Shown here one piece after another: positions 40,462 to 55,680 of a stretch of 64,000 bases of DNA. The notes beneath the pieces were generated by a model, which was given only the letters and a program-made list of their open reading frames with translations, ran no database searches and was not told the origin of the DNA. How positions within the stretch are numbered: position 1 is the first letter of the stretch; each line of letters opens with the position of its first letter. The stretch comes from a bacterium (GTDB taxonomy: Bacteria > UBA8248), in contig CBDBBI010000010.1 in assembly GCA_965202625.1 (NCBI GenBank), positions 1,984,001 through 2,048,000 on the forward strand, read 5' to 3'. The translations under genes and the position numbers were made by a program.

Positions 40462-40995
40462 TTATTCTGGGCGCAAGACGCTTTTTGCCTTGTCTCCCGC
40501 CGGCTTGAGAACGAGCGCGTCCAGGGCGGGGCGCGCCGGGCTTCTTGAGAGGATGAGTTCGACGGGCCCATCCAAAACCATGATCTCGTGGACGTCTCCA
40601 GGGGGGAACTGAAGCAAATCTCCTGGCCCCGCCTCCAGTATCTCTCCTTCAACGGCGGCGCGAAGCCTCCCCTTGAGAAGATAAAGAAATTGCTCGTCCC
40701 GGTGGTAGTGTGGGCTGGAATGTGCATTCTCCTCCATGCGGAAATAGCCGATGGTGGTATGCACTCCATCGACCCAGGCGGCGTTTGCGGACACGTAGTC
40801 GGCGGCTTTTCCCTGGTCTTGATTGGCGAGGTCCTTATAGATGGGCATGAAGTCGGCTCCTGTAGAGAACGTGGAAATTCCACCCGGGCGCATTCTAACT
40901 CCAAGGGCTCGCAATCTGTCTAGCTCCCATGTATATTTGGCGTGATTGACGGCGAGCGTATCCGCATCCCGTCGGATGTGTGCCTTGCCAGACAT
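40462..40995 (-). CDS. Cupin domain protein
   Basis: PHYHRDEQFLYLLKG...GPGD...PPGDVH. Confidence 0.82.
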   Translation of the reverse strand: MSGKAHIRRDADTLAVNHAKYTWELDRLRALGVRMRPGGISTFSTGADFMPIYKDLANQDQGKAADYVSANAAWVDGVHTTIGYFRMEENAHSSPHYHRDEQFLYLLKGRLRAAVEGEILEAGPGDLLQFPPGDVHEIMVLDGPVELILSRSPARPALDALVLKPAGDKAKSVLRPE

Positions 40996-41035
40996 GTCGC
41001 GCCCAACCCATCCGTGTTTCGGGAGGAACCTGAAC

Positions 41036-41476
41036 GTGAAGATCGCAGCCCCTTTTTTCGTCTTGCTCCTTGGTTCGGCCTTGTACGCTTCGGCATACGA
41101 TCCTGCGAAACATCCCTTACCGGCGAATCCGGACTCCGCGTATGAGTTGGGCCGCGTCCAGATTCATCGTGGAGACATGCGAAGCGCGTTTTTGCATTTT
41201 CGCCAAGCGGTTGTACATGACTCTCAAGATTTCAGAGCCCATACCTTGATGGGTTATGCCCTCCGGCACCTCGATCGCCTGGATGAGGCCGTTGCCGCAT
41301 ACGACAAAGCCTTGCGCGTGAACCCCAAATACGCCGAGGCTCTCGAATACCGAGGCGTCGCCCATCTCTTGCGAGGAAACCGCGCCGCCGCTATGCGTGA
41401 TTACCAGAAATTGGTTCTCCTGCGCTCGCCGTTGGCGGAAGACTTGAGAAAGCGGATCGACGAAAGCGGAAAATAA
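41036..41476 (+). CDS. Exported TPR-repeat protein
   Basis: Signal peptide followed by three TPR motifs. Confidence 0.82.
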   Translation: MKIAAPFFVLLLGSALYASAYDPAKHPLPANPDSAYELGRVQIHRGDMRSAFLHFRQAVVHDSQDFRAHTLMGYALRHLDRLDEAVAAYDKALRVNPKYAEALEYRGVAHLLRGNRAAAMRDYQKLVLLRSPLAEDLRKRIDESGK

Positions 41477-41551: not shown

Positions 41552-42583
41552 GTGAGCGAGCCTTCCGTGGATGCGTTTGAATACTTCTTTGACAAGCCTT
41601 GGTCAGACGGCCTGCCAGTCATTCCCCCAACGGAGGAGCGCTTGGCGCTTATGCTGGCGGGTGCGCGCCGCGCTCCGGGCGACGTCATAGGCGACGTCCC
41701 TCCGTTGTTGGGGCAGGCGCGCGTCGAGACGATCGCGGTTCACGCCGTCATGGCGGGATGCAAACCAGAGTATATGCCTGTCCTCATCGCGGCGATGGAG
41801 GCCATTCTTGAGGAGAAATTCAACATGGGCGGCGTGCAGGCGACGCTCTCTTGCGCGGCCCCCCTTTTGATCGTGAATGGCCCCTACGCCAAACAAATCG
41901 GACTGAGCGGCGGACTTGGCTGTTTCGGCCCCGGCAATCGCGCAAATGCGACAATCGGTCGCGCCATCAGGCTTTTGCTTCTCAACACGGGTGGCGGAAT
42001 ACCGGGCATCACTTCCATGAGCACGTTCTCTCAGCCGGCGAGATTCACTTTCTGCATAGCGGAGAACGAGGAGGAAAGCCCTTGGGCGTCTTTTGCGGAG
42101 ACGAGAGGCTTTGACGCGAATGACAACGTTGTCACAGTGGTGAACGTAGAGGGCCCCTGCATGGTCTGGGACGACGTGAGCGACGACCCGGAACGAATGT
42201 TTCCCTCCATTGCGGACGCCATGTCGCATTTGGGAGCGTGGAATTGTTGGGCCAGCACGGATTTGGTGGTGGCGATGAGCCCGCAGCAAGCGGCGATTTG
42301 CGCCAAGAATGGATACTCAAAGGCCGACGTTCATAGGCGTCTTTGCGAAATTGCGGGCCGCACCGTGGGCACGCTCAAGACGGGAGGGCATTTCAGGGAA
42401 AACCGCATTCGGAGCTTCCCGATCCCCGTTGATCTGGATGATGAGGATGCGTTCGTGCCGACGATCAAGGAGGCCGAAAGACTGTTCTTGATCGTGGCGG
42501 GCGGAGTTCCGGGGCCGATGACGGCCGTGATGCACGGTTGGAACGGAAACAGCCGTTCCGTATCCCGGGCGTTTGCGTCCTGA
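41552..42583 (+). CDS. Uncharacterised UGSC-associated protein, paralogue 1
   Basis: WSDGLPVIPPT, AVMAGC, IVNGP, GPGNRANATIGRAIRL, ENEEESPW, IVAGG. Confidence 0.75.
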   Translation: MSEPSVDAFEYFFDKPWSDGLPVIPPTEERLALMLAGARRAPGDVIGDVPPLLGQARVETIAVHAVMAGCKPEYMPVLIAAMEAILEEKFNMGGVQATLSCAAPLLIVNGPYAKQIGLSGGLGCFGPGNRANATIGRAIRLLLLNTGGGIPGITSMSTFSQPARFTFCIAENEEESPWASFAETRGFDANDNVVTVVNVEGPCMVWDDVSDDPERMFPSIADAMSHLGAWNCWASTDLVVAMSPQQAAICAKNGYSKADVHRRLCEIAGRTVGTLKTGGHFRENRIRSFPIPVDLDDEDAFVPTIKEAERLFLIVAGGVPGPMTAVMHGWNGNSRSVSRAFAS

Positions 42584-42611
42584 CGTTGTCCACATATTTT
42601 CTGAGGGAGCG

Positions 42612-43646
42612 ATGGCTTTGAACGGCCCTCAGGACGAATTCGAGTTTTTCCTGGAAAAGCCGTGGTCGGATGGATTGCCCGTCGTCACCCCATCGCAAGA
42701 GCGCGTAGAGCGGATGCTCTCGGGGACGAAGAGGAATCCTGCCGAGGCGATAGGCCGCGTTCCTCCCGCCATGGGCGAGGCCACGGTCCACAGCGTGGCG
42801 GTTCATGCGGTGATGGCCGGTTGTAAGCCGGAGTATTTGCCGGTCGTTCTCGGCGCAGTTTCCCTCATGCTTCGTGATGCGTTCAACGTGAACGGCGTGC
42901 AAGGCACGATGCACGGCGTAGCGCCCCTTATGATCGTCAATGGCCCCTATTCGCAGAAGATCGGCATTCACGGAGGCAATGGTTGCTTTGGCCCCGGTTT
43001 TCGGGCGAACGCCTCCATCGGCCGCGCCATTCGCCTGATCTTGATGAACCTGGGCGGGGGCATACCGGGCGTCTCTTCGATGACGATTTTCGGCACCCCG
43101 CTGCGTTATACCGCGTGCGTCACGGAGAACGTAAAGTTTCACCCCTGGAAGACGCTCGCGGCATCCAGGGGATACGGGGCGGATGAAAACGTGATCACCA
43201 TGGCCATGGTGGAAAGCCCGCGCCTGACCTTTGATGACGTCAGCGAGGAGCCCGAGCGTCTGCTCAGGGGCATCGCGGATGCGATGACGGGCCTGGGCTC
43301 CTGGAACATGCACGCGCCCAGGACGGATATGGTCGTCGCCATGAATCCCCAGCACGCGAAAATTTGCTCTGATGGCGGGCTTTCGCGCGCGGACGCGCAT
43401 CGGCGTCTATGCGCGCTGGCGGGCCGCAAGGTGAAGGAGCTCAAGCGCGGCGGCAACTGGCGACGCGCGCGCGCCCTGGATATGAAAATTGACGTGGACC
43501 CCGACGATGATGAGTGTTTCGTCCCCGTCATCAAAGACCCGAGCGACCTCCATCTTATCGTCGCCGGCGGCTGGGGTTCGGGCAGCGCGGTTTGCCATGG
43601 GTGGAGCGGCGGCAGTCGCGCCGTTCATGGGGCGTATGCGGTTTGA
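42612..43646 (+). CDS. Uncharacterised UGSC-associated protein, paralogue 2
   Basis: Same motif set and collinear with paralogue 1; RBS GAGGGAG. Confidence 0.75.
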   Translation: MALNGPQDEFEFFLEKPWSDGLPVVTPSQERVERMLSGTKRNPAEAIGRVPPAMGEATVHSVAVHAVMAGCKPEYLPVVLGAVSLMLRDAFNVNGVQGTMHGVAPLMIVNGPYSQKIGIHGGNGCFGPGFRANASIGRAIRLILMNLGGGIPGVSSMTIFGTPLRYTACVTENVKFHPWKTLAASRGYGADENVITMAMVESPRLTFDDVSEEPERLLRGIADAMTGLGSWNMHAPRTDMVVAMNPQHAKICSDGGLSRADAHRRLCALAGRKVKELKRGGNWRRARALDMKIDVDPDDDECFVPVIKDPSDLHLIVAGGWGSGSAVCHGWSGGSRAVHGAYAV

Positions 43647-43687
43647 CGCCTGGCGCGCCATGCGCGACGAAACGAAGTCGTATCTCC

Positions 43688-44704
43688 ATGGATGAGTTCG
43701 AGTTTTTCTTTCAAAAACCCTGGTCGGATGGCCTTCCGGTGGTTCCGCCTACCCGAGAACGCATGGCCGCCATGCTCTCGGGCGCGAGGTTGCGCGAGGC
43801 CGAGGTCATCGGTCTGGTGCCGCCCCTCATGGGGGAGGCGACCGTCGGGGCGGTTGCCGCACACGCGGTGATGGCGGGGTGCGCGCCCTCGTTTTTACCC
43901 CTCGTCATCGCAGGTCTCGAAGCCCTTCTCGCACCGAACCTCAACCTGAACGGCGTCCAGGGAACGATGCACGGTGCGGCACCCTTGCTTATCGTGAACG
44001 GACCGTATGCGCGGAAAATCGGTCTGCATGGCGGCACGGGATGCTTTGGCCCGGGCTTTCGTGCGAACGCGGCCATCGGCCGCTCCCTCCGCCTCATTCT
44101 CATGAACCTGGGCGGCGGCGTGCCGGCTTCCGCCTCCATGAGCACGTTCGGCTCGCCCGCCAGATATACGTTTTGCGTCGCCGAGAACGAGGCGGAAAGC
44201 CCCTGGGCACCGCTTTCCGTCACGAGAGGATTTCGTCGTGACGACGACGTCGTGACGGCCGTGATGGTGGAGGCACCCCAAGGTTACATCGACGATTATT
44301 CAAAAGAGCCGGAATCTTTTTTCGTGGGCCTGGCGGATAAAATATCCACGTTGGGCGCGCTCAACGTTTGGCTGAAGACCCAGGTCGTCGTCGCCCTGGG
44401 GCCGGATCATGCGCGGATGTGCGCGCGCGCGGGACTTGGCAAAGAAGACGTTCGCCGCAGAATGATGGCACTTGCGCGCAGACCTCTGGGGGAGCTCAAA
44501 AAATCGGGTTACTGGCGTGAGGAGATGGTGGCCAAATGGCCGTTTGACGCAGATCCGCAAGACGATTCGTTCATGGTTCCGGCTATCAAGGATGAAGACG
44601 ACCTCATCCTTGTCGTGGCGGGCGGAACTCCCGGCCCCGTGACGGCCGTCATGCCCGGCTGGGTGGACGGCAGCACGGCGGTCTCCATGGGTTATCGCGC
44701 ATGA
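43688..44704 (+). CDS. Uncharacterised UGSC-associated protein, paralogue 3
   Basis: MDEFEFFFQKPWSDGLPVVPPT and the same motif set. Confidence 0.75.
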   Translation: MDEFEFFFQKPWSDGLPVVPPTRERMAAMLSGARLREAEVIGLVPPLMGEATVGAVAAHAVMAGCAPSFLPLVIAGLEALLAPNLNLNGVQGTMHGAAPLLIVNGPYARKIGLHGGTGCFGPGFRANAAIGRSLRLILMNLGGGVPASASMSTFGSPARYTFCVAENEAESPWAPLSVTRGFRRDDDVVTAVMVEAPQGYIDDYSKEPESFFVGLADKISTLGALNVWLKTQVVVALGPDHARMCARAGLGKEDVRRRMMALARRPLGELKKSGYWREEMVAKWPFDADPQDDSFMVPAIKDEDDLILVVAGGTPGPVTAVMPGWVDGSTAVSMGYRA

Positions 44705-44747
44705 ATCGGGGACGTTTCAGACGGGGGATACTTTTGGAGGCGTGCGC

Positions 44748-45767
44748 ATGGATGGGTTCGAGTTTTTCTTTGAGAAGGAATGGTCGGACGGATTGCCCGT
44801 GGTGCCGCCGACCGAAGAGAGAGTCGCTTGGATGCTCTCTGGAACCACGCGGGCACCAGACGAGGTCATAGGCTACGTCGCTCCGGCGGGGGGTGCGCTC
44901 AGCGTCCACGGCGCGGCGGTCCACGCCGTGATGGCGGGGTGCAAGCCTGCGTATATGCCGGTGTTGACGGCGGGTCTGGAGGCGCTTCTTGATGCGCGTT
45001 TCAACGTCAATCTCATTCAGGCCACGACGAGTGCTGGTGCTCCTTTCATGTTGGTGAACGGCCCCTACGCCAAGGAAATCGGGCTGCACGGCGGAGTGGG
45101 CTGCATGGGTCCCGGCTTTCGCGCGAATCTCACCATCGGCCGCGCCGTGAGGCTCATCATGATGAACGTAGGCGGCGGCATCCCTGGCATCACCTGTCTC
45201 GGTGGTTTCGGAGGTCCCTGGCGCACCACTTTTTGCATCATGGAGAACGAGGAGGAGTCGCCTTGGGAGTCGTATGCGGAATCAAAGGGGTTTTCGGGGG
45301 ACGACAACGTGGTGAGCATGATTCCCCTTGAGGGGCCGGCGCAGGTATGGGACGACGCGAGCCTGACTCCCCAGCGATTGCTCACGACCGTGGCCGACAT
45401 GATGTCCGCTTTGGGCGGACCCAACATGTATCGGCAAGCGGATATGGCGGTTGTCCTGGGCGCGCAACATGCGCATCTTTGCGCCGACGCCGGCCTCGGC
45501 CGCGCCGACGTTCACCAAAAATTGCTGGAGATGGGCGGTCGCACCGTTCGGGATATCAAACGCGGCGGCATCTGGCGCGACGAGAAGGGCGCGAATCGTT
45601 GGCCGTTTCCCGTGGACGTGAACGATGACGATTTTTTCGTGCCCGCCGTTGGCGATCCCGACGATCTGCATTTGATCGTCGCCGGAAGCAGGGGTTCGCC
45701 CTCCAGCATGGTGATGCACGGAATTACAGTGGCGTGCCGGGCGGTGACAAAGAAATTTGACGTGTGA
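44748..45767 (+). CDS. Uncharacterised UGSC-associated protein, paralogue 4
   Basis: MDGFEFFFEKEWSDGLPVVPPT and the same motif set. Confidence 0.75.
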   Translation: MDGFEFFFEKEWSDGLPVVPPTEERVAWMLSGTTRAPDEVIGYVAPAGGALSVHGAAVHAVMAGCKPAYMPVLTAGLEALLDARFNVNLIQATTSAGAPFMLVNGPYAKEIGLHGGVGCMGPGFRANLTIGRAVRLIMMNVGGGIPGITCLGGFGGPWRTTFCIMENEEESPWESYAESKGFSGDDNVVSMIPLEGPAQVWDDASLTPQRLLTTVADMMSALGGPNMYRQADMAVVLGAQHAHLCADAGLGRADVHQKLLEMGGRTVRDIKRGGIWRDEKGANRWPFPVDVNDDDFFVPAVGDPDDLHLIVAGSRGSPSSMVMHGITVACRAVTKKFDV

Positions 45768-45790
45768 GCACCCGCCTTCCGGCAGGCAAT

Positions 45791-45830
45791 GAGGCGTGAA
45801 GCCTCCGGATTTCCACGCCTCTACTTCCCC
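45791..45830 (+). terminator. Possible terminator hairpin after the paralogue array
   Basis: GAGGCGTG...CACGCCTC inverted repeat; weak U-tract. Confidence 0.35.
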
Positions 45831-46099
45831 TTCAAAACTGACAACCTCACAACCTTGACGGTCATAGGTCCAAAGCCTGTTCCCGCAACCACGCCAAACC
45901 ACTGAAAAATCTGGTATTTTTGATTTTTGGCGACATCTATTAGAAATCACCGGGATTCAGAAAAACCACCGGAACAAACATTCAATGTTGTAATTTTAGG
46001 GATCGCGTAGAGAGGTACCTGGCAATGTGTTCGTACTGAACTTCCACGATTTCCATCCGCGAACGATTACGTGATTTTAACAATTAGCGCTAACAGGCC

Positions 46100-47341
46100 C
46101 TATTCCTCGTCTGAGGGTTGCCACTCGATATCCGAATCCTCTTCAAGGGCGTAGGAAAAATCTTTCACCTCCGTTTCCGGCTGGTAGTCCGGGTACAGTC
46201 GGTGCAAGTCCCACTCGTTGATCGCGGTGCGGATCTTGTGGCGCATTCGACGATGAATGCCGGCACCCGCGACGACCTGTGGTGCCGGTGGCCGCGCACC
46301 GTAAGCCTGCTCATAGATGCCGCGCAACTTTTCCAGCACCGCAACGAGCTCGTCATCACCCGGTTGCTCCAGGATGACGCATTCGCGTTCCAGTAGCTGC
46401 ATACCAATTTCGGCCTGTTCGACAATGCCTTTGTATCGGCTCTGCCCTAGCCTCAATCCTATCTTGTCCTTGTCACGCTTATGTCCGTCGGGGTTGATGA
46501 CATGGAAGGCGAAATCGTCCGTCACCGCACCGACCACGACCAAGCCAGGTAAGGCCTCGTCCGCGACGCGTCCCATCCAGCGCGCAAGCTCTGCATAGGC
46601 GCGACCCCGTTGCAAGATCGAATAAGAAGCGACCAGTTCAATCTCGTCGAGAAGAACGACCCAACCTCGATAACCAGCGGCCTTGATAAGCTCGACGACA
46701 AAGCGCAGCCGCTTCGGGGGCAACTCCGCCGCCCTTGGTGCGGAAAATGGATAGTATTCGGCTTTGTGGATTTCCTTCAAACCTCTGCGGAGATTCGCTA
46801 CTGCCATACGATCGCCGGACCAGAAGGCTTCGATTTCCTCTTCAAGACTGAAATCATCGTTGTCTTGATGCACGATGAGGCTCGCTGGGAATATTGGATG
46901 CAGGTCTCCGCGCGACGCGGCATCGTGGACCCATTGGATGAACACTTCATACCGCTCCGAGGATGGATTCAACCGCAAGCTCAACTCTTCCATCAACCGC
47001 CCGTCGTGTCCGGGCAACCTGCCGCTCTCCATAGCGGCGGCAAACACCTTCTCTAGGTTGTAAAGTGGCGTCTCCTTGCTGATCGCCACCCTACTGCACA
47101 CGAAGTCTTCGGCCAACGCCCGCTGTTCCAGATGCGACAAAAGGTGCGATTTGCCGGTTCCAAAGCCGCCTGAAACCAGCATCGCCCGCGAATTCCCAGT
47201 ATCCCCTGGGACCTCCGCCAACATATGTGCAAAACGTTCTTCCACCTCCGGCTGATTACAGCCCAATTCGCGCACCGCATCTCGGTTGGGTACGCCGTTG
47301 CGCAACGCCTCCACCGCCTGCCGGGCAGCGACCTCTGGCAT
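46100..47341 (-). CDS. BrxD/DUF2791-like P-loop ATPase
   Basis: EALRNGVP N-terminus, Walker A SGGFGTGKS, Walker B VVLLDE. Confidence 0.82.
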   Translation of the reverse strand: MPEVAARQAVEALRNGVPNRDAVRELGCNQPEVEERFAHMLAEVPGDTGNSRAMLVSGGFGTGKSHLLSHLEQRALAEDFVCSRVAISKETPLYNLEKVFAAAMESGRLPGHDGRLMEELSLRLNPSSERYEVFIQWVHDAASRGDLHPIFPASLIVHQDNDDFSLEEEIEAFWSGDRMAVANLRRGLKEIHKAEYYPFSAPRAAELPPKRLRFVVELIKAAGYRGWVVLLDEIELVASYSILQRGRAYAELARWMGRVADEALPGLVVVGAVTDDFAFHVINPDGHKRDKDKIGLRLGQSRYKGIVEQAEIGMQLLERECVILEQPGDDELVAVLEKLRGIYEQAYGARPPAPQVVAGAGIHRRMRHKIRTAINEWDLHRLYPDYQPETEVKDFSYALEEDSDIEWQPSDEE

Positions 47342-47353
47342 AGCATCTTCTCC

Positions 47354-48310
47354 TTAGCTCAACCGCACTAAAGCCGAGACTGGATTGACAATATTCCGGT
47401 CTCGCACATCGTCCATTATTCTCACCTTCAATGCTTCGTATATCCCCCAATCCCTTCCCGATTCCTGCTCAAAGAACTGATAGTTGGTCCTCACTATGAG
47501 CAATGTTCCTGTTAGTAGATCTGTGTCGTCGATGATCTCTCGTAACAGTTGATAGTGATCCATAGTCATCGCCCTGTTGTAATAGTGCTGTCCGTCCTTC
47601 GGGTTGCGGGCGACTGTCAATCGCGCATTGTCGAGCATGACCACCGTGCCCGACCATCCCGCCTGCTGCACCCAATAAAAGATCGACCTGAGGAAGTATC
47701 GCGCCGTGGCACGGTTGATTGTTGTGCAAATCTGAAACGTTCTGACTCTGCCAATTCTTGGGTCGGTACCATTGAGCCAATCTATGACTGGCTGGCGTGT
47801 TGTCCTTCCCGCTGCTGAACTATCAGCCTGCTCCAGGCAAATTTGGGTCATAGCTATCCGAAACGCTTTCACCATGTTTTTGTTCTTCGTGACTTCCTTT
47901 TCAATTTTTTGCCTCAATCCAAGAAGGACCGATCTATGTTCCAAGCCGTTAAGTTGTGCTACGGCATCAATAACGTTTTCTACTGTTCCCGGATCAATGT
48001 CTTTGATTTGATAATTCAATGACTCCAGAGAGCGCAACATAAATTGGCGGGCAAGGAGCCGCCAATCGATCTGTGCTGCAATGCCGAAGAAGATTTTCTG
48101 TGGCATGTGGACGCGATGTTCCTCAGCGTCCAGATTCAGGAAAATATAGCCTTCCTTCTCGCAACACGACCTCAAGGTTTCCAACAATTCCCATTTCCGG
48201 TCATCATCAATAACCGAGAATTTTACTGCCGCGCCACCATCCTTGACGAAGGTAGATAGATATTCTTGCTTAAGAATGTCCATCCATTCCGCAATGGCAA
48301 TGTTCGTCAC
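47354..48310 (-). CDS. Degenerate BrxD/DUF2791-like protein (no Walker A)
   Basis: GGAAVKF lead-in strand without a GxxGxGK motif; GWSGTVVMLDN; LLREIIDD; GIYEALKVRI. Confidence 0.7.
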   Translation of the reverse strand: MTNIAIAEWMDILKQEYLSTFVKDGGAAVKFSVIDDDRKWELLETLRSCCEKEGYIFLNLDAEEHRVHMPQKIFFGIAAQIDWRLLARQFMLRSLESLNYQIKDIDPGTVENVIDAVAQLNGLEHRSVLLGLRQKIEKEVTKNKNMVKAFRIAMTQICLEQADSSAAGRTTRQPVIDWLNGTDPRIGRVRTFQICTTINRATARYFLRSIFYWVQQAGWSGTVVMLDNARLTVARNPKDGQHYYNRAMTMDHYQLLREIIDDTDLLTGTLLIVRTNYQFFEQESGRDWGIYEALKVRIMDDVRDRNIVNPVSALVRLS

Positions 48311-49119
48311 GAAGGATTCTTCCTAAAACTAATCCCGCAATATTTTACATTATTTCCACTTGGGTCGGTAAAAAACAGTAAGTTTTTTGATGGCTGCCTA
48401 GTTCCGGTGGACGACGGAAAGGAGACGGCAGCCCCATCTCTGGTCTCTCGGGGGCCGTCGCGGTCGAGTAAATACACATCCCGAGCGAAGTCCTGTTGTG
48501 TATAGTCCACCGCACTGCCTGGTAGAGCGGTTATGAGCTTGTATATCCTGATTAACAGAATGATCCGCCCGGCATTCAGTGGACCATTCGGCGCATTAGA
48601 GGTGATGTCTTTGTAGACTCTGTAAAGCGTCTCGATAAACTGCTTCGGCTTGAAGCCACTCTGTCTGTTCTGATTGTGAATGAGAAAATTAACAAGATGG
48701 GATGGCCTTATATCCGAAACTTTTTTTCTGTCGACCTGCACAGCCCGATCCTTCGGGACGATCTTGACGACAGAGGGATAGGAAACTAGGATTCGATCCT
48801 GTTTATGAATGTTCAAACGTTTCTTTTGGGCCACTTGTAGAAGCTCGTTTATATACCTGTCCCTGAGAAACTGAACCTCTTCTTCTTGCGAAAATGGCCA
48901 GAAGGAGGTGATGGAAAAGTCTTCCCGTTGCAGCGCGGCCAAAGCCTCCCCGATCTTTTCCTGCTCGCGCCTAATGGTTGCAATCCGGCCCGTGTGAGCA
49001 GCTTTCTTGAGTGCCCTTGCCCTCGCCGCCAATTCCTTCGCGGCTTGCAACGCTGCCTCGGCGGCACGTTCTGTGTCAGCGCAGGCTTTTTCGAAACTTG
49101 TCATCTCAACTGATCCCAA
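48307..49119 (-). CDS. Hypothetical protein (N-terminal coiled coil), first gene of the BrxD-like operon
   Basis: 270-aa ORF with RBS and a 4-bp overlap with the next gene. Confidence 0.7.
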   Translation of the reverse strand: MGSVEMTSFEKACADTERAAEAALQAAKELAARARALKKAAHTGRIATIRREQEKIGEALAALQREDFSITSFWPFSQEEEVQFLRDRYINELLQVAQKKRLNIHKQDRILVSYPSVVKIVPKDRAVQVDRKKVSDIRPSHLVNFLIHNQNRQSGFKPKQFIETLYRVYKDITSNAPNGPLNAGRIILLIRIYKLITALPGSAVDYTQQDFARDVYLLDRDGPRETRDGAAVSFPSSTGTRQPSKNLLFFTDPSGNNVKYCGISFRKNPS

Positions 49120-49429
49120 CTGATCCCTCCAAGGACTCTCCAGGAAGAGTCATGCTAAACATCCATCCGGTCGTTCGTCAAGTTTGGCGCGGGTCAGGGA
49201 CAGAGTTATTGCATTTGGCCTATGATCGACCTTGTGAGGGCATCGGAGTTTCCGATGTGTAGATGCTTTCGATGAACGGAGATACCGGGGAGATCGACGT
49301 AACCTTATGGTGCCACTCCCGGACGTTTTGTCCCCCATGATTTGCCCATCGCATGTTGTTCCTTTCACGGAAGTTAAGGGATGGAATTGCTTACATGCCA
49401 TCGCCGTTTCGGGGTGGTTCCGGATGAGG

Positions 49430-49460
49430 AAGCCCCGGCAAGATGCCGGGGCTTTGCTTT
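49430..49460. terminator. Rho-independent terminator-like hairpin
   Basis: AAGCCCCGGCA-AGA-TGCCGGGGCTT just beyond the Mo-enzyme stop codon. Confidence 0.7.
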
Positions 49461-49469
49461 TCCTGGACG

Positions 49470-51731
49470 TCAACCGCCCCCGTTCTCGCCGTTTTTCTGC
49501 ATCACCGCCCGGCAGACGCGCTCGGGGGTGATGGGCAGGTCGTGGAGCTCCGCGCCTATCGCGTCGTTGACGGCGAGGGCGACGGCGGCCGGTGCGTTGT
49601 TGCACGGCGGCTCTCCAACGCCGCGCGCGCCGTATGGACCCGCCCCCTCGCCGCATTCGAGGACGAGGGACGCAAACTCGCCGACGTCCGATGAGGTGGG
49701 TATCAGGTACTCGTGAAAACTCTGGGAGCGGCAATCTCCCTCCACCATGGTGATTTCCTCGTGCAGCGCGTAGCCGATTCCCATCACCGCGCCTCCTTCG
49801 AATTGCCCTTCCACGCTCGTGGGGTTGAGCGCGCGCCCCACGTCATGGGCGGCGACGTGCTTCAGAAGGTTCACCTCGCCGGTCTCTACGTCCACTTCCA
49901 CCTCGCTCGCGTGAACGCCGAAGGTGTAATCCGACCAGCCGCCCATGCCGTTCATGTAGCGTTGCGGATTCTCATAGTCGTGCCCCGGCATGTTGTAGCC
50001 GTGCGTGCAGTGGAGCGACTCGCCCATTCCCTTGGCTTCGCCCGCCGCGGCTCCAATCCCCACCCTTCTCTGGGGAGCGGAGGAGACCCAGGCCTCGCCG
50101 CCCCCGAAGCGAACGTCCTCCTCCGCGGCTTCGAGCAATGATGCCGCGCCTTTGGCCAACGCCTTGCGAACTTCCTCTGCGGCGAGTTGAACGGCGTGTC
50201 CCGCCATCAACGTTTGGCGCGAGCCTGCGGTGATGCCCGATAGCGGGGTGGTGGCGGAATCGGACAAGCGGGTGGAGACCTGATCGAGCCTGAGCCCCAA
50301 GGTTTCGGCCGTGATGCTTTGAAGCGTAGCCCCCTGGCCCGCGCCTATGTCCGGAGCGCTCACGCGGACCACGGCGCTGCCGTCCGGCTCCAGGTGAACC
50401 GCCGCGTTCGCGTCGTCGTGCGGTCTTCCGTAGCCGGTGATGTTCGCCGCCGCCGCCCGGCCGATGCGCTTTCCCGGGCCCGGCTTCGCGGGCGTGCCCA
50501 AAGCCTGAAGCGCGCTGTCCAGGCACCCCTCCAGGTTGGGCTTGTAAGGAATTTTCTGGCCGGTGGGCAGCTTTTGCCCTTTCTGAATGAAATTTTTTCG
50601 CCTGAACGCGTATTTGTCCATGCCGATGGCGTCCGCGATCAGGTTTATCTGGTTCTCGTAGGCGAAGCAGACCTGGTTCGACCCGACGCCCCGCATGGCG
50701 TTGGTGATGGGGTTGTTCGTGAGATAGCCGTGCGCGCGAATTTGCGCGTTGGGAACGTCGTAAGGGCCTGCGGCGATGCACATGGCGCCCAGGAGGAACA
50801 AGTTGGACTTGTATGGATAGGCGCCCGCGTCGCCCACGATGTCCGCCTGTAAGGCGAGAATTTTTCCGTCCTTGGTCGCTCCCGTCTTGTATCTCATATA
50901 GAAGGGGTGTTTCTTTGAAGTGTTTCGGATGCCTTTCTCGCGGTTCAGCACCATCACGGCGGGCCTTCCCGTATGCCAGGTGAGCAGCGCCAGGTAGGGT
51001 TCCACCGTCAACATTCCCTTGGCGCCGAACCCGCCGCCGACGTAAGTGCCGAGGTGGCGGACGCGGCTCTGGGATATCCCCAGAATCGCCGCGATGGCGC
51101 GATAGTATTCAATGAGCTGCGTGCCGACGCGGATGGTGAGGACGCCGTCCTCCTCCATCCAGGAGGCGCCGGAGGCGGGCTCCAGAAAGGCATGTTCCGC
51201 AAGCTGCGTCGTGTATGTTTTCTCGATGACCACGTCGGCTTCGGCGAACGCGGCTTCCACGTCCCCCCGGGCGACTTCAAAATCACACGCCTGCCGCTTC
51301 TCCGCGCTCGCCTCGTCGTGGCGCGTCGTCCACACGCCTTCTTCCGCGTCAATTTCCACCTCAATGGCCGCGATGGCGGCGTCGAGCGCGTCTCTCGTTT
51401 CGGCGCCCACGATCGCCAGGGCGTCTCCGGTATATTCGATCTTCTCTTCGACCAAAACGGGTTGATGGGGAAGACCCGGCGTGCCCGAGCCGAACCGCAC
51501 GTTTTTGCCGGGAATGTCCTTCGCGGTCAGAACGGCGACGACGCCTGGAATTTTCTCGGCCCTCGAAGCGTCAAGTTTTTTTAGGCGGCCCACCGGAGTG
51601 GGTGTGAACAACACGCCGCATTGCAAGGCGCCAGGGGGTATCGCGTCTTCTCCATAAGGCATGGAGCCGTCCGCTTTTGGTATGGAATCGTATCGAACGT
51701 TCGACTTGCCGATGATGTCGTAATCGGCCAT
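49470..51731 (-). CDS. Xanthine dehydrogenase family molybdopterin-binding subunit
   Basis: True start MADYDIIGK after an AAGGAG RBS; HAFLEP, VGGGFGAK, AMRGVG, GQFEGG, GVGEPP. Confidence 0.92.
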   Translation of the reverse strand: MADYDIIGKSNVRYDSIPKADGSMPYGEDAIPPGALQCGVLFTPTPVGRLKKLDASRAEKIPGVVAVLTAKDIPGKNVRFGSGTPGLPHQPVLVEEKIEYTGDALAIVGAETRDALDAAIAAIEVEIDAEEGVWTTRHDEASAEKRQACDFEVARGDVEAAFAEADVVIEKTYTTQLAEHAFLEPASGASWMEEDGVLTIRVGTQLIEYYRAIAAILGISQSRVRHLGTYVGGGFGAKGMLTVEPYLALLTWHTGRPAVMVLNREKGIRNTSKKHPFYMRYKTGATKDGKILALQADIVGDAGAYPYKSNLFLLGAMCIAAGPYDVPNAQIRAHGYLTNNPITNAMRGVGSNQVCFAYENQINLIADAIGMDKYAFRRKNFIQKGQKLPTGQKIPYKPNLEGCLDSALQALGTPAKPGPGKRIGRAAAANITGYGRPHDDANAAVHLEPDGSAVVRVSAPDIGAGQGATLQSITAETLGLRLDQVSTRLSDSATTPLSGITAGSRQTLMAGHAVQLAAEEVRKALAKGAASLLEAAEEDVRFGGGEAWVSSAPQRRVGIGAAAGEAKGMGESLHCTHGYNMPGHDYENPQRYMNGMGGWSDYTFGVHASEVEVDVETGEVNLLKHVAAHDVGRALNPTSVEGQFEGGAVMGIGYALHEEITMVEGDCRSQSFHEYLIPTSSDVGEFASLVLECGEGAGPYGARGVGEPPCNNAPAAVALAVNDAIGAELHDLPITPERVCRAVMQKNGENGGG

Positions 51732-51861
51732 TTGTTTGCTCCTTACGATGTAAGAGGGTTTTTGAAAATCAATCTTCATTCTGCCAAACTTCGACGCAAC
51801 TGAGAAGGGGAAATACGCTTGCGCCCGCGTTTTCCAGGGGACAATCCAGCGGGCGACATTC

Positions 51862-51890
51862 TGGACAAGGGATGCTTTGCGAGATATGAT
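51862..51890 (+). promoter_or_regulatory. Putative sigma70 promoter of the UGSC operon
   Basis: TGGACA-17 nt-TATGAT. Confidence 0.5.
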
Positions 51891-51932
51891 GTGGATAGGG
51901 CTCAATTCACATACCCTACATTGGAGGGCGCC

Positions 51933-52463
51933 ATGGCGAACGAAATGGGATTCATCGACCCGACTGCGGGGGGGACGGCCGAGAAAATAGAACTTGCGCA
52001 ACGGCCCGTCGATCTTTCTGGCAAGGTGGTGGGACTTCTCGACAACACGAAAGAGCAGGCGGACATTATTCTCGAAACTCTGGGAAACGCTCTCCGAGAA
52101 CAATATGACGTGGCGAAGGTCGTCTCGCAGCGCAAGGAGCATTACTCGAAGCCCGCCACGGATGAGATGATTGCGGAAATGGCCCAGGAGGTGGACGTGG
52201 CGATAGCCGCGCTGGGGGGCTGAGGCTCGTGTACGTTGTGCAGTGTGCACGACACGGTGGAATTTGAGAAACGAGGCGTTCCTTCGACCACCATCATCAC
52301 CGAGGCGTTCAAGAACGCAGCGGACTTTCAGTTTCGGGGCAAGGGCATGGAAGGGCACCCATACGTGCAGTTGCCCCACCCGGTCAGCAATTTGCGACCC
52401 GAGGAGATGCGGGAGACGACGCTGAGGTTCGTCGAGGAAGTGGCCAGCCACCTGAAAACCTGA
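51933..52463 (+). CDS. UGSC-family selenoprotein (Sec97)
   Basis: DVAIAALGG-TGA(52221)-GSCTLCSVHDTVEFEKRGVP is one continuous frame; the ORF track splits it into two ORFs. Confidence 0.9.
52224..52258 (+). promoter_or_regulatory. Putative bacterial SECIS element
   Basis: Hairpin GTTGTGC-AGTGT-GCACGAC (52235-52253); 18 nt between UGA and loop. Confidence 0.7.
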
Positions 52464-52496: not shown

Positions 52497-53285
52497 GTGC
52501 CCGTGCGCGGGTTCGAGACGATATCCTATGAAGAAGAGGACGGATTGGCGGTAGTGAAGCTCAACCGCCCGGAGAGTTTGAACGCGATCAGTTTCAAGAT
52601 GGCGGAAGAATTCGTGGAGCTGGCGCGGGCCTTGGTTGATTCGAGAGACGTGCGCGTTGTGGTTCTCTCTGGCGAGGGACGCGCTTTCAGCACGGGTCGA
52701 GACCTCAAGGAAAGCGCTACGCACACCAAGGAGATGGCCGACCAATATCAGCGTCATGTGATGGCGACGACGACGCTGTGGGAGTGCTTGCCCATGCCTA
52801 CCATCGCCGCCATCAACGGCCATGCGTTTGGTTGGGGTGTGGAAATTACTCTGGGGTGCGACGTCAGGCTCGCCGCGCAAGAAGCCACTCTTTGCCTGCC
52901 GGAGTGCAGCTTGGGAATTTTTCCGGGGGCGGGCGGCGTGGTCAGGCTGCAAAGAATCATGCCGGCTGGACAGGCGAAAGAGCTCGTGTTCACGAGCAAA
53001 CGAATTGACGGGAAGGAGGCCGAGCGCATCGGCCTGGTGAACAAGGCGCATCCCCTGAATGCGCTCATGGGCGAAGCGAGGGGTATGGCGGAGAGGATAA
53101 GGGACAATGGCCCTCTGGGGGTTCGCGGCGCGAAAAAGGTGATCGACCAGACGCTCGACATGCCGCTCGCCCAGGCGGTGGAGTTTTCCAACGCTCTGAG
53201 GCTGCCGCTCAACCACACCAAGGATTTTGCCGAGGCACTGGCCGCTTTCAGGGAGAAGAGGAAACCTGTTTTCACAGGAGAATAG
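52497..53285 (+). CDS. Enoyl-CoA hydratase/isomerase
   Basis: AFSTGRDL, AAINGHAFGWGVE, LPECSLGIFPGAGG, AFREKRKPVFTG. Confidence 0.92.
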   Translation: MPVRGFETISYEEEDGLAVVKLNRPESLNAISFKMAEEFVELARALVDSRDVRVVVLSGEGRAFSTGRDLKESATHTKEMADQYQRHVMATTTLWECLPMPTIAAINGHAFGWGVEITLGCDVRLAAQEATLCLPECSLGIFPGAGGVVRLQRIMPAGQAKELVFTSKRIDGKEAERIGLVNKAHPLNALMGEARGMAERIRDNGPLGVRGAKKVIDQTLDMPLAQAVEFSNALRLPLNHTKDFAEALAAFREKRKPVFTGE

Positions 53286-53360
53286 AAGACGCCGGCGGCT
53301 TTGCCCGAAATGCCCATCCTGTCCTCGAGAGGATGGGCGTTTTGTTCATCGTGGCGGAAC

Positions 53361-54062
53361 ATGAACGAAGACCTCCTCGTCAAACGTGTGCAATCGGGGG
53401 TGGCGCGCCTCACCCTGAATCGCCCGCAGGCCCGAAATGCGGTGAACACGCCGCTTATGGAAGCCATCTGCGAAGCGATGGATGAGATGGGAAGCCGAGA
53501 AGACATGAAGGCGCTGATCGTTGCGGGCGCGGGAAGCGCTTTTTGCGCAGGCCGGGATTTGAAAGAGAGCACCTCCCACACACGGGCGCAGGCGGCGCGC
53601 TTCATGGTGCTGGGCGAGCGATGGAGCGCGGCGCTTCGTGAATTCCCCGTTCCCACGATCGCGGCTGTGAACGGCCCCGCATTGGGATGGGGCATGGTGT
53701 TGATGCTCGAGTGCGACCTTCGCATCGGGGCGAATAACGCCGTTTTGGGATACCCGGAGACCACGTTGGGGGTGTTTCCGGGAGCCGATGCCACCGTGCG
53801 CCTTACGCGGCAGACTTTTGTTCCATCCGCGAAAGATTTGGCACTCACCGGCAGGAGGTTGGACGCGCGCGAGGGGCTTCGCTTGGGGTTGCTGAATCGC
53901 GTTGTGCCCAAAGGCGACTTGATGGCCGAAGTGGACGCCCTGGGCGCCGAGATTGCCCAGCGTCCGCTGGAAAGACTCAGGGCGATGAAGGCGAGTTTCC
54001 TGAAAGTGGAAGCGATGTCGCGCTTCGGGCATTTGTCCCTGGCAGAGAGAATGGAGCGATGA
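53361..54062 (+). CDS. Enoyl-CoA hydratase/isomerase paralogue (C-terminally short)
   Basis: AFCAGRDL, AAVNGPALGWG, YPETTLGVFPG. Confidence 0.88.
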   Translation: MNEDLLVKRVQSGVARLTLNRPQARNAVNTPLMEAICEAMDEMGSREDMKALIVAGAGSAFCAGRDLKESTSHTRAQAARFMVLGERWSAALREFPVPTIAAVNGPALGWGMVLMLECDLRIGANNAVLGYPETTLGVFPGADATVRLTRQTFVPSAKDLALTGRRLDAREGLRLGLLNRVVPKGDLMAEVDALGAEIAQRPLERLRAMKASFLKVEAMSRFGHLSLAERMER

Positions 54063-54469
54063 GGGTTCGGGAGTGTTTTTTGCAAGCGGTGGCGATTGTG
54101 GGAGCGGAAGAAGACGTCAGGGACGCTTGGGCGGCCATGAACAGGATCAACGCGCCTTGGGCGGCGGTTTTCGATGCCAAGCGGCTGGTTGGCGTCTTGA
54201 ACAAGGAAGATATCGATGCGTTGATTCGCACGCCTGAGACGTTTCAAAACGCGGGCGATGTCGCCCATGGAGGAGCACCCGCCAGGCGGGCGATGTCGTT
54301 GTCTCCAAACGCGGATTTGAACGAGGCCGTCCTTCAGCTTGAAATGGCGGAAGCCGATGCCGCTTTTGTCGAAGGCGTTGGCGGACCGCCCAGCGTCCTG
54401 GAGGCGGATGTGGCCAATCGTGCGCTGTCGCGCTCTTCGCGTTGTTCTCCTCGTTTTCGGAGCTGGTGA
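54059..54469 (+). CDS. Divergent CBS-domain protein
   Basis: VRDAWAAM...AVFDAKRLVGVLNKEDI; second repeat degenerate. Confidence 0.55.
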   Translation: MRVRECFLQAVAIVGAEEDVRDAWAAMNRINAPWAAVFDAKRLVGVLNKEDIDALIRTPETFQNAGDVAHGGAPARRAMSLSPNADLNEAVLQLEMAEADAAFVEGVGGPPSVLEADVANRALSRSSRCSPRFRSW

Positions 54470-54483
54470 GTGGAGGGATGTCC

Positions 54484-55680
54484 ATGGAATTCACGTTGAA
54501 TGAAGAACAGTTGCGAATTCAGCAGATTGCCAGAAAATTCTCTTATGAAGAATTGGCCCCGGTGGCTCCTGAGCGCGATCAAATTCAAAACTGGGAGGAG
54601 CGAATGCCGTGGGACTTGACGGAAAAGGCGAGCGCCCTGGGGCTCAGGCAGCTGCCTTACCCCAAAGAATATGGCGGCATGGATGCCGACGTGCTTTCGT
54701 GCTGTCTGGCGGGAGAGGAGCTTGCCGCGGGCGATCTGGGTTTTGCGGTCAACCTGGATCAGACGTGGAAGCTGTCCCATATACTGCAAAAAGTAGAGCC
54801 TGCGCTCAGAGACGTCTGGATGAAGCGCTTATGTGAGGAGCCGAGATTCCTGGTCGCGATTTCCATGACCGAGGAAGGAGCGGGGAGCGATCATCAAGGA
54901 TATTACGACGACCCCTCCATCGCGCTTTATGCGCGCGCGGAGAGAAAAAACAGCAAGTGGATCATCAACGGGAAAAAGCGCTACATCAGCAATGGTCCTG
55001 TGGCTTCGTTATACGTTTTGGCGGCGAGAACCGACCTCAGCAAAAATTTAAGAGAAGGATTGACCGGTTTTCTCGTTCCCAGAGACGCCCCTGGCGTATC
55101 GATTGGCCGCGTGCATGAGAAAATCGGGCAACGCCTTTCCATGAACGCAGAAATATTTTACGAGGACGTCGAGATTCCCGAGAGTCACGTTATCCTGGGC
55201 GAGGGGAACATGTTTGAGATCAGGGGCAATCTTCTGGCGATGGGAAAGCCAGAAGCCGCCGCCACGGCCCTGGGCGTCGGGCGCGCCGCGTTCGAGAAGG
55301 CACTGGATCACGGCCGCAAGCGCGTCCAGGGGGGAAAGCCCATCGCCCGCCACCAGGCGATAGAAACCATGCTCGCTGACATGGCGATGAATTTGGACGT
55401 CGCTCGTACCTATATCTGGCGCACCGCATGGGCGGTGGATCATCAAAAGCCCTACGATTTCACGCAAGGGTGGAAGTGTAAAATTTTCGCATCAGAGGTC
55501 GCCTTTGATTGCGCGCGCCTGGGCATGGAGATATTCGGTGGGGCGGGCATCATGCGTGATGCGCCGATGGAGAAATATCTTCGCGACGCCAGCACGTTCC
55601 TGCATTCAGACGGCACCAATCAAATCTTGCGGCTGCGGACGGCGCAAGCATATGTGAATGGCGCGGCCACGGCGTTTTAG
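54484..55680 (+). CDS. Acyl-CoA dehydrogenase family protein
   Basis: YPKEYGG, MTEEGAGSD, INGKKRYISNG, RVQGGKPI, IFGGAG, EKYLRDA. Confidence 0.92.
   Translation: MEFTLNEEQLRIQQIARKFSYEELAPVAPERDQIQNWEERMPWDLTEKASALGLRQLPYPKEYGGMDADVLSCCLAGEELAAGDLGFAVNLDQTWKLSHILQKVEPALRDVWMKRLCEEPRFLVAISMTEEGAGSDHQGYYDDPSIALYARAERKNSKWIINGKKRYISNGPVASLYVLAARTDLSKNLREGLTGFLVPRDAPGVSIGRVHEKIGQRLSMNAEIFYEDVEIPESHVILGEGNMFEIRGNLLAMGKPEAAATALGVGRAAFEKALDHGRKRVQGGKPIARHQAIETMLADMAMNLDVARTYIWRTAWAVDHQKPYDFTQGWKCKIFASEVAFDCARLGMEIFGGAGIMRDAPMEKYLRDASTFLHSDGTNQILRLRTAQAYVNGAATAF

What the first reader, a model, noticed from the sequence alone, without database searches (positions are those of the whole stretch)
41552..52463. 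Candidate modular selenoenzyme: one GrdB/PrdB-like UGSC subunit and four interchangeable partner paralogues
Seen: four tandem, collinear ~340-aa paralogues with no assigned function, and ~6 kb downstream on the same strand a Sec protein with U-G-S-C-T-L-C. The segment VDVAIAALGG-U-GSCTLC...EFEKRGVP...LPHPVSN lines up by eye with the catalytic C-terminus of glycine/betaine/proline reductase selenoprotein B (recalled as VDAVILTST-U-GTCTRC...EIERAGIP...IPHPLGN). Recalled knowledge: this large-protein family is often adjacent or fused to UGSC proteins, and neither has a characterised function as far as I know. Inference: the large proteins bind or activate substrate, and one shared selenol subunit performs Grd/Prd-like reductive C-N or C-S cleavage. 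The BrxD island and Mo-enzyme gene now lie between the two parts.
Basis: partly seen in the sequence, partly recalled or inferred. Interest (0 to 1): 0.85.

Follow-up and report, generated by a model that had tools for sequence, protein, structure and literature searches.

The report
Selenoprotein module with four partner paralogues
A small selenocysteine protein related to the active end of glycine reductase protein B is genetically tied to a large, uncharacterised protein family present here as four tandem copies, which points to an unstudied two-part redox enzyme that is common in aquatic bacteria.

Summary
Four tandem ~340-aa paralogues (41552-45767, +) match no Pfam or NCBIfam model. A 172-aa UGSC-family selenoprotein (51945-52463, +) has an in-frame TGA at 52221-52223. 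The genome has tRNA-Sec, SelA and SelB, and a conserved hairpin follows the TGA.

UGSC is homologous to the Sec-bearing C-terminal ~125 residues of selenoprotein B (GrdB/GrdF/GrdH/PrdB): hhalign 94.9%, E 4e-8, Sec aligned on Sec. It lacks the GrdB N-terminal domain, and this genome has no detectable GrdE/PrdA or GrdA.

The large family is its regular partner. It is adjacent on the same strand in 30 of 32 genome loci and 64 of 80 metagenome loci. The two are fused in both orders. A complex model of a natural Cys-form pair scored 0.83 against controls of 0.00, with the Sec motif in the interface.

The four-copy array followed by a lone UGSC is conserved in five relatives. The Mo-enzyme gene and the BrxD island are later insertions.

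The large protein has no solved structural relative. Thioredoxin reductase neighbours and fusions suggest a thioredoxin-driven reductase. The reaction, and whether the paralogues are interchangeable or co-assemble, remain unknown.

The parts
40946..41476 (+). TPR-repeat protein directly upstream of the array (context gene)
   Evidence: Pfam TPR families. Matched upstream of the array in 2 of 4 related genomes, G033 and G034, and in metagenome contig L201.
41552..42583 (+). Large-family paralogue 1 (343 aa)
   Evidence: ORF. 54% identical to copy 4. No Pfam or NCBIfam match. Forms a 6-row clade, SH-aLRT 99, with first-position copies of 5 relatives.
42573..43646 (+). Large-family paralogue 2 (start probably ATG 42612)
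   Evidence: ORF. 53% identical to copy 4. Clade support 100. Groups with large genes that sit directly beside window-type UGSC genes in metagenome contigs.
43688..44704 (+). Large-family paralogue 3 (338 aa from ATG 43688)
   Evidence: ORF. 50% identical to copy 4. Clade support 100.
44742..45767 (+). Large-family paralogue 4 (341 aa)
   Evidence: ORF. AlphaFold2 model pLDDT 95.5. No solved relative: Foldseek best TM 0.31, VIA best Z 4.5.
46100..49119 (-). Inserted island: two BrxD-like ATPase ORFs (46100-47341, 47354-48310) and an unknown ORF (48307-49119)
   Evidence: PF10923 and NF033438 below cut-off. No match to these proteins in four related genomes. GC falls to 0.54.
49470..51800 (-). 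Molybdopterin hydroxylase (xanthine dehydrogenase family) large subunit, divergent from UGSC
   Evidence: PF02738, PF20256, PF01315. Best NCBIfam matches are PucD and 4-hydroxybenzoyl-CoA reductase alpha, below cut-off. Present between array and UGSC only in the near lineage.
51945..52463 (+). UGSC-family selenoprotein (172 aa, Sec93)
   Evidence: PF24696 and NF041046 above cut-off. Model pLDDT 92.8, Rossmann/flavodoxin-like. hhalign to the GrdB-like profile 94.9%.
52221..52223 (+). TGA read as selenocysteine
   Evidence: tRNA-Sec, SelB and SelA are in the genome.
52235..52253 (+). SECIS-like hairpin (7-8 bp stem, GUG loop) starting 14 nt after the TGA
   Evidence: fold. Present in 81 of 84 unique Sec forms against 1 of 7 Cys forms; one compensatory G:C to A:U change in L190.
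52497..55680 (+). Co-directional downstream genes: two enoyl-CoA hydratases (52497-53285, 53301-54062) and an acyl-CoA dehydrogenase (54442-55680)
   Evidence: Pfam and NCBIfam. Conserved after UGSC in relatives. In L186 and L190 the order is large-UGSC-ECH-ACAD, with no Mo gene.

Best explanation
The region encodes a two-component selenoenzyme. The small subunit (UGSC) is a free-standing version of the Sec-bearing C-terminal domain of selenoprotein B of the glycine/betaine/proline reductases. It is a Rossmann-like domain with Sec-x-x-Cys at the start of a helix. Its obligate partner is the ~340-aa large family, which has a confidently predicted fold without a solved relative and carries a near-invariant Cys (MAGC motif) and several conserved Arg residues. 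In this lineage one UGSC gene serves a locus with four anciently diverged large paralogues. A Mo-enzyme gene, and in this genome a BrxD island, were later inserted between them. Shown: the homology, the genetic coupling, the fusions and the conserved synteny. Modelled: the complex, with the Sec motif in the interface. Inferred: the large subunit holds the substrate, probably a small carboxylate or CoA thioester. Also inferred: Sec attacks or reduces that substrate, a Se-S bond forms with the neighbouring Cys, and the thioredoxin system regenerates it.
For: Sec decoding: tRNA-Sec, SelB and SelA are present. A conserved hairpin occurs in 81 of 84 Sec forms against 1 of 7 Cys forms. RNA-library contigs of 3 runs bridge the TGA unchanged.

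GrdB homology: 14 of 17 UGSC members hit TIGR01917 (best E 1.2e-5), 13 of 17 hit GrdF and 13 of 17 hit PrdB. hhalign against 7 TIGR01918 members gave 94.9%, E 4.3e-8, over UGSC 46-170 and GrdB 295-424, with Sec on Sec. With the motif masked it was still 82.7%. The reversed control gave 0.9%, and 20 column shuffles scored at most 21.

Coupling: 2 of the 3 UGSC genes in this genome lie directly after a large gene. The same holds for 30 of 32 genome loci across several phyla. Of 80 metagenome loci, 64 have a large gene within 183 nt and 4 more have one across a Mo gene. Of 20 long family members scanned, 13 are UGSC-large fusions, in both orders.

Complex: ipSAE 0.83, 0.84 and 0.83, best control 0.00. 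That mark was reached by 116 of 157 solved complexes and 2 of 215 mismatched pairs. Runs agreed in at least 86% of contacts, and partner pLDDT was at least 86. The interface holds the CGSC motif and the conserved N-terminal FDP motif.

Synteny: four large genes, Mo gene, UGSC, ECH, ECH, ACAD in G023, G030, G033, G034 and L135. Each copy is orthologous by position.

Electron supply: thioredoxin reductase above the TIGR01292 cut-off lies next to the pair in Variovorax and Cupriavidus. There are also a large+Pyr_redox_2 fusion and a UGSC+large+FeThRed_B fusion.
Against: No substrate or reaction is shown. This genome has no GrdE/PrdA (PF09338) or GrdA (PF04723) (positive control), so the pyruvoyl chemistry of Grd/Prd has no visible basis. 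The large family shows no similarity to GrdE-like or GrdB/PrdB profiles.

The complex was modelled for a Variovorax Cys-form pair, not for the window's proteins. Predicted interface columns are no better conserved among the four paralogues than other columns (0.47 against 0.55).

Thioredoxin reductase is a neighbour in only 3 of 32 genome loci and 0 of 80 metagenome loci. Folding energy of the 55 nt after the TGA is not distinct from shuffles (z 0.07).

AhpC and OsmC genes lie just upstream, which would also fit a plain antioxidant role.
Confidence: 0.55

Rival explanations
1. The components are the same, but the tandem large paralogues are not interchangeable alternatives. They assemble together (hetero-dimer or hetero-tetramer) into one complex that uses one UGSC.
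For: Six of the 150 listed family representatives are 709-741 aa with 2-3 matched stretches, that is two large domains in one chain (P0126, P0129, P0130, P0131, P0133, P0141). Two tandem large genes plus one UGSC recur in 9 metagenome loci. All four copies are retained by position in 6 genomes or contigs.
Against: Most loci have a single large gene with one UGSC, so one copy suffices elsewhere. A solo large gene exists in this genome at C10:1296266-1297369. No large-large interaction was tested.
Confidence: 0.3
2. UGSC plus the large protein is a general thiol/selenol-disulfide oxidoreductase for oxidative-stress defence or repair, not a substrate-cleaving reductase.
For: The literature treats UGSC as a UxxC redox protein of unknown function (PMC2398784 and PMC13188914, passages read). 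AhpC (39287-39739) and OsmC (39890-40360) lie upstream, and OsmC is conserved there in relatives. The ESM Atlas automatic name of the nearest cluster is 'Thiol-disulfide oxidoreductase family protein' (a lead only).
Against: The fold is not thioredoxin-like. Neighbours vary by subfamily in the manner of catabolic modules: CoA-transferase III in 10 of 32 loci, aminotransferase III in 9 of 32, EamA in 16 of 32, TctC in 21 of 80, plus ECH and ACAD. The closest relatives are substrate-specific reductase subunits.
Confidence: 0.2
3. The lone UGSC works with the divergently transcribed Mo hydroxylase (electron or selenium delivery), and the four-copy array is functionally separate.
For: UGSC and the Mo gene are divergent, 145 bp apart, in the window and in 4 related genomes. 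Mo-UGSC pairs were seen in 8 of 80 metagenome loci and 1 of 32 genome loci.
Against: The Mo gene is absent from most loci, whereas a large gene is adjacent in 64 of 80 and 30 of 32. L186, L190 and L199 show large-UGSC-ECH with no Mo gene. In every Mo-type locus long enough to see it, the large array is also present (L135, L139, L151, L201).
Confidence: 0.07
4. The pair is a sulfur or selenium trafficking relay (persulfide or perselenide carrier), not an enzyme acting on an organic substrate.
For: Conserved Cys/Sec residues occur on both partners. This genome has many other Sec proteins.
Against: No cysteine desulfurase, SelD or cofactor-biosynthesis genes were seen among the neighbours scanned. 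Natural Cys forms exist.
Confidence: 0.06

Closest known systems
Selenoprotein B of glycine, sarcosine and betaine reductase (GrdB, GrdF, GrdH; TIGR01917, TIGR01918)
   Same: Homologous Sec domain. The motifs U-G-(S/T)-C-T-x-C, E-x-E-(K/R)-x-G-(V/L)-P and P-H-P/V align without gaps. hhalign 94.9% over ~120 columns, with Sec on Sec. Thioredoxin reductase is sometimes encoded nearby; that grd operons also carry trxB is recalled, not tested.
   Different: UGSC is 172 aa against ~434 aa and lacks the N-terminal ~290 residues (PF07355). It scores 11.7-16.3 bits against family cut-offs of 65-602. Its partner is the large family rather than GrdE. This genome has no GrdA and no GrdE.
D-proline reductase PrdB (TIGR04483)
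   Same: A small UxxC selenoprotein that works with a separately encoded large partner. 13 of 17 UGSC members give weak PrdB hits.
   Different: hhalign to the PrdB-like proteins of this lineage reaches only 25.8%. The PrdA pyruvoyl proprotein is absent.
UGSC-containing selenoprotein family (PF24696, NF041046; Zhang and Gladyshev 2008, PMC2398784)
   Same: The window protein is a member above both cut-offs. The paper lists it among the most abundant selenoprotein families of the GOS ocean metagenome survey (255 Sec, 21 Cys forms) and notes a fusion to a domain called 'Unknown_1' (passages read).
   Different: The paper proposes a thioredoxin-like fold, whereas the model here is Rossmann/flavodoxin-like. 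No GrdB link, partner family or arrays are described in the passages I read. Its Figure S1 is a PDF I could not see, so I could not check that Unknown_1 equals the large family.

Membership tests
UGSC family (PF24696 / NF041046) | HMM score above the curated cut-off | tested here: met
   176.5 bits against 25; 149.3 bits against 125.
UGSC family (PF24696 / NF041046) | U/C-G-S-C motif, with Sec encoded by an in-frame TGA followed by a hairpin | tested here: met
   UGSCTLC at residues 93-99. Hairpin found in 81 of 84 Sec forms. Sec machinery is present.
Selenoprotein B family (TIGR01918; GrdB/GrdF/GrdH/PrdB) | Whole-protein HMM score above the cut-off | tested here: not met
   TIGR01918 11.7 bits against 65.45; TIGR01917 16.3 bits against 602.
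Selenoprotein B family (TIGR01918; GrdB/GrdF/GrdH/PrdB) | Sec-bearing C-terminal domain with a UxxC motif | tested here: met
   hhalign 94.9%, E 4.3e-8, Sec aligned on Sec; controls at or below 1.2%. The templates are TIGR01918 members.
Selenoprotein B family (TIGR01918; GrdB/GrdF/GrdH/PrdB) | N-terminal GRDB domain (PF07355) | tested here: not met
   No PF07355 hit on UGSC. The genome's PF07355 hits lie elsewhere.
Glycine/proline reductase system | Pyruvoyl proprotein partner GrdE/PrdA (PF09338) encoded with the selenoprotein | tested here: not met
   0 matches in this genome, which is 99.7% complete. The same search finds it beside GrdB-like genes in G008 and G002. Large family against GrdE-like: 0.1% and 0.05%.
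Glycine/proline reductase system | Selenoprotein A (GrdA, PF04723) | tested here: inconclusive
   0 matches in this genome, but no positive control was run for this family.
Thioredoxin-fold redox selenoproteins | Thioredoxin fold | tested here: inconclusive
   The model has five parallel strands in beta-alpha order. The top 50 Foldseek and VIA matches are flavodoxin, Rossmann and short-chain dehydrogenase-like, none a thioredoxin. This rests on a predicted model only.

The most novel reading that the evidence does not exclude
A widespread and so far unstudied class of thioredoxin-driven selenoenzymes of aerobic and aquatic bacteria. A minimal GrdB-type Sec module is plugged into a catalytic subunit of a new fold that replaces the pyruvoyl proteins GrdE/PrdA. 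Arrays of diverged catalytic paralogues share one Sec module and so carry out reductive bond cleavage (C-N, C-S or similar) on different organic acids or CoA esters.
Probability: 0.3. Interest if true: 0.85.

Novelty: new variant of a known kind. Interest (0 to 1): 0.72.

Why it matters
UGSC is listed among the most abundant selenoprotein families in ocean and freshwater metagenomes, and a 2026 review still lists it among selenoproteins whose functions remain largely uncharacterised (PMC2398784 and PMC13188914, passages read). Three results turn it into a testable two-subunit enzyme: the link to the catalytic Sec domain of GrdB, a near-obligate partner family (7226 cluster representatives at E 0.001), and a likely electron donor. 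Natural Cys-form pairs in cultured Variovorax, Cupriavidus and Nonomuraea can be expressed without Sec machinery. The partner's confidently predicted fold has no solved relative, so a structure would also be new.

Tried and rejected
- Sequence search of PDB: UGSC profile best E 0.22; large profile no hit.
- Foldseek and VIA searches of PDB gave nothing specific for either model.
- hhalign of UGSC against a single PrdB-like sequence gave 3%, though in the right register. Against a 9-sequence PrdB-like profile it gave 25.8%.
- Large family against GrdB-like and PrdB-like profiles: below 1%. Against two partial GrdE-like sequences: 0.1% and 0.05%. That test has low power.
- The 'longer' search for UGSC fusions in the protein collection found only one garbled 348-aa protein. 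Fusions were instead found from the large-family side.
- The homologue search with the PrdB-like protein returned almost only forms truncated at Sec, so it was of little use for a profile.
- ESM Atlas: the large protein's nearest clusters are unnamed. The Cys-form UGSC gave no usable hit.
- Rfam: no match around the TGA.
- Interface columns are not better conserved among the four paralogues.
- RNA-library contigs gave no cover over 44006-46009, which includes copy 4 and most of copy 3. This is no evidence of silence.
- The careful tree search did not finish. The quick tree is reported.
Full report
**What is there**

The window is G000:C10:1984001-2048000. Four + strand ORFs of about 340 aa lie head to tail at 41552-45767. 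Copies 1-3 are 54, 53 and 50% identical to copy 4. Neither Pfam nor NCBIfam gives any real match.

At 51945-52463 (+) a 172-aa frame is interrupted by one TGA (52221-52223). Read as Sec it gives GG-U-GSCTLC. It matches PF24696 (176.5 bits, cut-off 25) and NF041046 (149.3 bits, cut-off 125).

Several genes lie between the array and UGSC:
- Two BrxD-like ORFs and one unknown ORF (46100-49119, -).
- A xanthine-dehydrogenase-family Mo subunit (49470-51800, -). Its apparent 1248-aa ORF running over UGSC is a high-GC shadow extension.

Downstream, on the same strand as UGSC, are two enoyl-CoA hydratases and an acyl-CoA dehydrogenase.

**Is the Sec real**

The genome has tRNA-Sec, SelB (361 bits, cut-off 242) and SelA (565 bits, cut-off 268). 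It holds three UGSC genes, each with one TGA.

In the class, 43 of 51 genomes have UGSC, including 41 of 41 in the window's own family, with up to 9 matches per genome. All 150 listed matches carry one TGA; 89 more were not listed.

A 7-8 bp hairpin begins 14 nt after the TGA. The energy of the 55-nt stretch is not distinct from shuffles (z 0.07). However, an uninterrupted hairpin of at least 6 bp is present in 81 of 84 unique Sec forms against 1 of 7 Cys forms, and L190 shows a compensatory change. Rfam has no match.

Contigs from RNA libraries of three runs of one study bridge the TGA with no differences. A run of a second study covers the 3' part. DNA carry-over in those libraries cannot be excluded.

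**Relation to GrdB/PrdB**

The first NCBIfam scan gave a weak GrdB hit (E 0.0034), with UGSC 68-161 on GrdB 325-409. Across 17 UGSC members that are 32-81% identical to the window's copy:
- 14 hit GrdB (best E 1.2e-5).
- 13 hit GrdF.
- 13 hit PrdB.
- 9 hit TIGR01918.
- 9 hit GrdH.

No other family recurs in more than three members.

I took seven GrdB-size read-through proteins from related genomes. The four of them scanned are TIGR01918 members (448-517 bits, cut-off 65). hhalign of the UGSC alignment against their alignment gave probability 94.9%, E 4.3e-8, over 118 columns. UGSC 46-170 aligned to GrdB 295-424 of 434, with Sec on Sec and the HP motif aligned.

Controls:
- With the seven motif columns masked: 82.7%, E 9.5e-6, same region.
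- Reversed template: 0.9%.
- Twenty column shuffles: scores at most 21.1.

So UGSC is a free-standing homologue of the Sec domain of selenoprotein B. It lacks the N-terminal GRDB domain and fails the family cut-offs.

Its AlphaFold2 model (pLDDT 92.8) is a five-stranded beta-alpha domain with Sec at the start of helix 94-109. PDB matches are generic flavodoxin/Rossmann folds (TM about 0.5; VIA Z 10-12) and none is a thioredoxin. The 2008 suggestion of a thioredoxin-like fold (PMC2398784, passage read) is therefore not supported by the model.

**The partner family**

In this genome the other two UGSC genes each lie directly downstream of a large-family gene that is 37% and 33% identical to copy 4.

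Genome collection: 32 UGSC loci were found in Nitrospinota, Microbacterium, Nonomuraea, Nocardioidaceae, Variovorax, Cupriavidus, Tectomicrobia, Bryobacterales and unnamed MAGs. Of these, 30 have a large gene adjacent on the same strand (28 upstream, 2 downstream). The exceptions are a 2.6-kb contig and a partial match.

Metagenome collection: 80 loci with window-type UGSC (66-90% identical) were examined.
- 64 have a large gene within 183 nt (41 upstream, 23 downstream).
- 4 have three, four, or at least one (the contig is cut) large genes across a Mo gene.
- 1 has enough flank but shows none (a Mo-type locus where the contig ends).
- 11 have too little flank to tell.

The family has 7226 cluster representatives at E 0.001. 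I scanned 20 of the longer listed members:
- 5 are full UGSC followed by large.
- 5 begin with the post-Sec part of UGSC followed by large. These are Sec forms cut by gene callers. One of them also ends in FeThRed_B.
- 3 are large followed by UGSC cut just before Sec.
- 1 is large followed by a pyridine-nucleotide disulfide oxidoreductase.
- 6 have no Pfam domain.

The model of copy 4 is confident (pLDDT 95.5) but has no solved relative. Foldseek's best TM is 0.31. VIA's best Z is 4.5, where unrelated models typically reach 7-8. PDB sequence search found nothing.

Nearly invariant residues include C67 (MAGC), R127, N129, R134, C165, E168 and the DGLP..P motif.

**Do they bind**

The complex tool takes code-11 proteins only, so I used the natural Cys-form pair of Variovorax defluvii (L074).
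- ipSAE was 0.83, 0.84 and 0.83; the best of 3 controls was 0.00.
- That mark was reached by 116 of 157 solved complexes and 2 of 215 mismatched pairs.
- The runs agreed in at least 86% of contacts, and the partner's pLDDT was at least 86.
- The counts hold only roughly, because my own alignments were used.

The interface contains the conserved N-terminal FDP motif of UGSC and residues 102-104 and 106-108 (CGSC, the Sec-equivalent). On the large protein it contains the F/WSDGLPVVPPT motif and residues 64-80, just before the near-invariant Cys. The model supports binding; it does not show it. The window's own proteins were not modelled.

**The window's arrangement**

In G023, G030, G033 and G034 (same genus) and in contig L135 the order is: cupin (preceded by TPR in some), four large genes, Mo gene (opposite strand), UGSC, ECH, ECH, ACAD.
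- In G030 and G033 the array abuts the Mo gene.
- No match to the BrxD-like proteins was found in any of the four genomes.
- L151 and L201 have three copies.
- L186 and L190 have large-UGSC-ECH-ACAD with no Mo gene, and L199 has large-UGSC-ECH before the contig ends.

So the Mo gene, and later the BrxD island (GC 0.54), were inserted into an older large-UGSC operon.

In a quick IQ-TREE tree each window copy falls in a 6-row clade with the same-position copies of the five relatives (SH-aLRT 99-100). Copy 2 groups with large genes directly beside window-type UGSC genes. All array copies are separate from the partners of the other two UGSC types (the careful search did not finish).

The duplications are therefore old and every copy is retained.

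**Interchangeable or co-assembling**

This question is open.
- Large genes outnumber UGSC genes: 7 to 3 in this genome, and 15 to 8, 14 to 7, 11 to 6 and 9 to 4 matches in relatives.
- Six representatives carry two large domains in one chain, and two-copy arrays are common. Both favour co-assembly.
- Interface columns are not better conserved among the four copies (0.47 against 0.55).

**Function**

Genuine GrdB-like genes in relatives sit beside GrdE-like genes. This genome has no PF09338 or PF04723 match. The large family shows no similarity to GrdE-like sequences (low power).

Neighbours differ by UGSC subtype:
- CoA-transferase III in 10 of 32 genome loci.
- Class-III aminotransferase in 9 of 32.
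- EamA transporter in 16 of 32.
- TctC receptors in 21 of 80 metagenome loci.
- ECH in 9 of 80.

Thioredoxin reductase above the TIGR01292 cut-off follows the pair in Variovorax and Cupriavidus.

My reading is a thioredoxin-dependent reductase acting on small carboxylates or CoA esters, with Sec as nucleophile and Se-S recycling. The reaction itself is inference.

**Literature**

Two searches and passages of four papers describe UGSC as an abundant selenoprotein of unknown function. One fusion to 'Unknown_1' is mentioned. No link to GrdB appears in the passages read. The supplementary figure of PMC2398784 is a PDF I could not see.

Noticed in passing
G000:C6:7932-9840 (outside the window): A short contig duplicates window copy 4 at 100% identity, plus part of copy 3. 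It is probably assembly redundancy; genome contamination is 4.69%.
   Followed up: no
G000:C10:2151840-2152739, 1776883-1777764, 1926784-1927482 (loci L086, L128, L129): Three further PrdB-like selenoproteins of about 270-300 aa (U-P-L-C or U-G-L-C motifs; TIGR04483 at 112-168 bits, below cut-off) occur in a genome without PrdA. Related genomes hold up to 8 such matches. Their partners are unknown.
   Followed up: partly
G000:C10:969634-970162 (loci L013, L014): A fragment of a large-family gene with 3 TGA and 1 TAG inside the match. It looks like a decayed copy.
   Followed up: no
window 49470-53216 (-): A 1248-aa ORF extends the Mo-enzyme gene upstream across the UGSC gene on the opposite strand. 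It is a shadow frame of high-GC DNA. The Mo protein starts near 51800 (MADYDIIGK...).
   Followed up: yes
window 39287-40360: AhpC/TSA peroxiredoxin and OsmC genes lie just upstream of the cupin-TPR-array block. OsmC is conserved there in relatives (G023, G033, L151, L201).
   Followed up: partly
L158:1-6479: One metagenome contig carries three consecutive large-UGSC pairs within 6.5 kb, one on the + strand and two on the - strand.
   Followed up: no
L065:5515-6765: The Nonomuraea Cys-form UGSC ORF has a C-terminal extension of about 100 aa containing a C-A-T-C motif.
   Followed up: no
L133 (G000:C10:2537000-2553000) and L047: The second UGSC-large pair (type B) with its EamA transporter sits among defence genes (DndB, GmrSD, restriction-modification methylases).
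   Followed up: no
window 49470-51800 and relatives: The Mo hydroxylase large subunit has no adjacent 2Fe-2S or FAD subunit genes. In G030 and G033 it directly abuts the array.
   Followed up: partly
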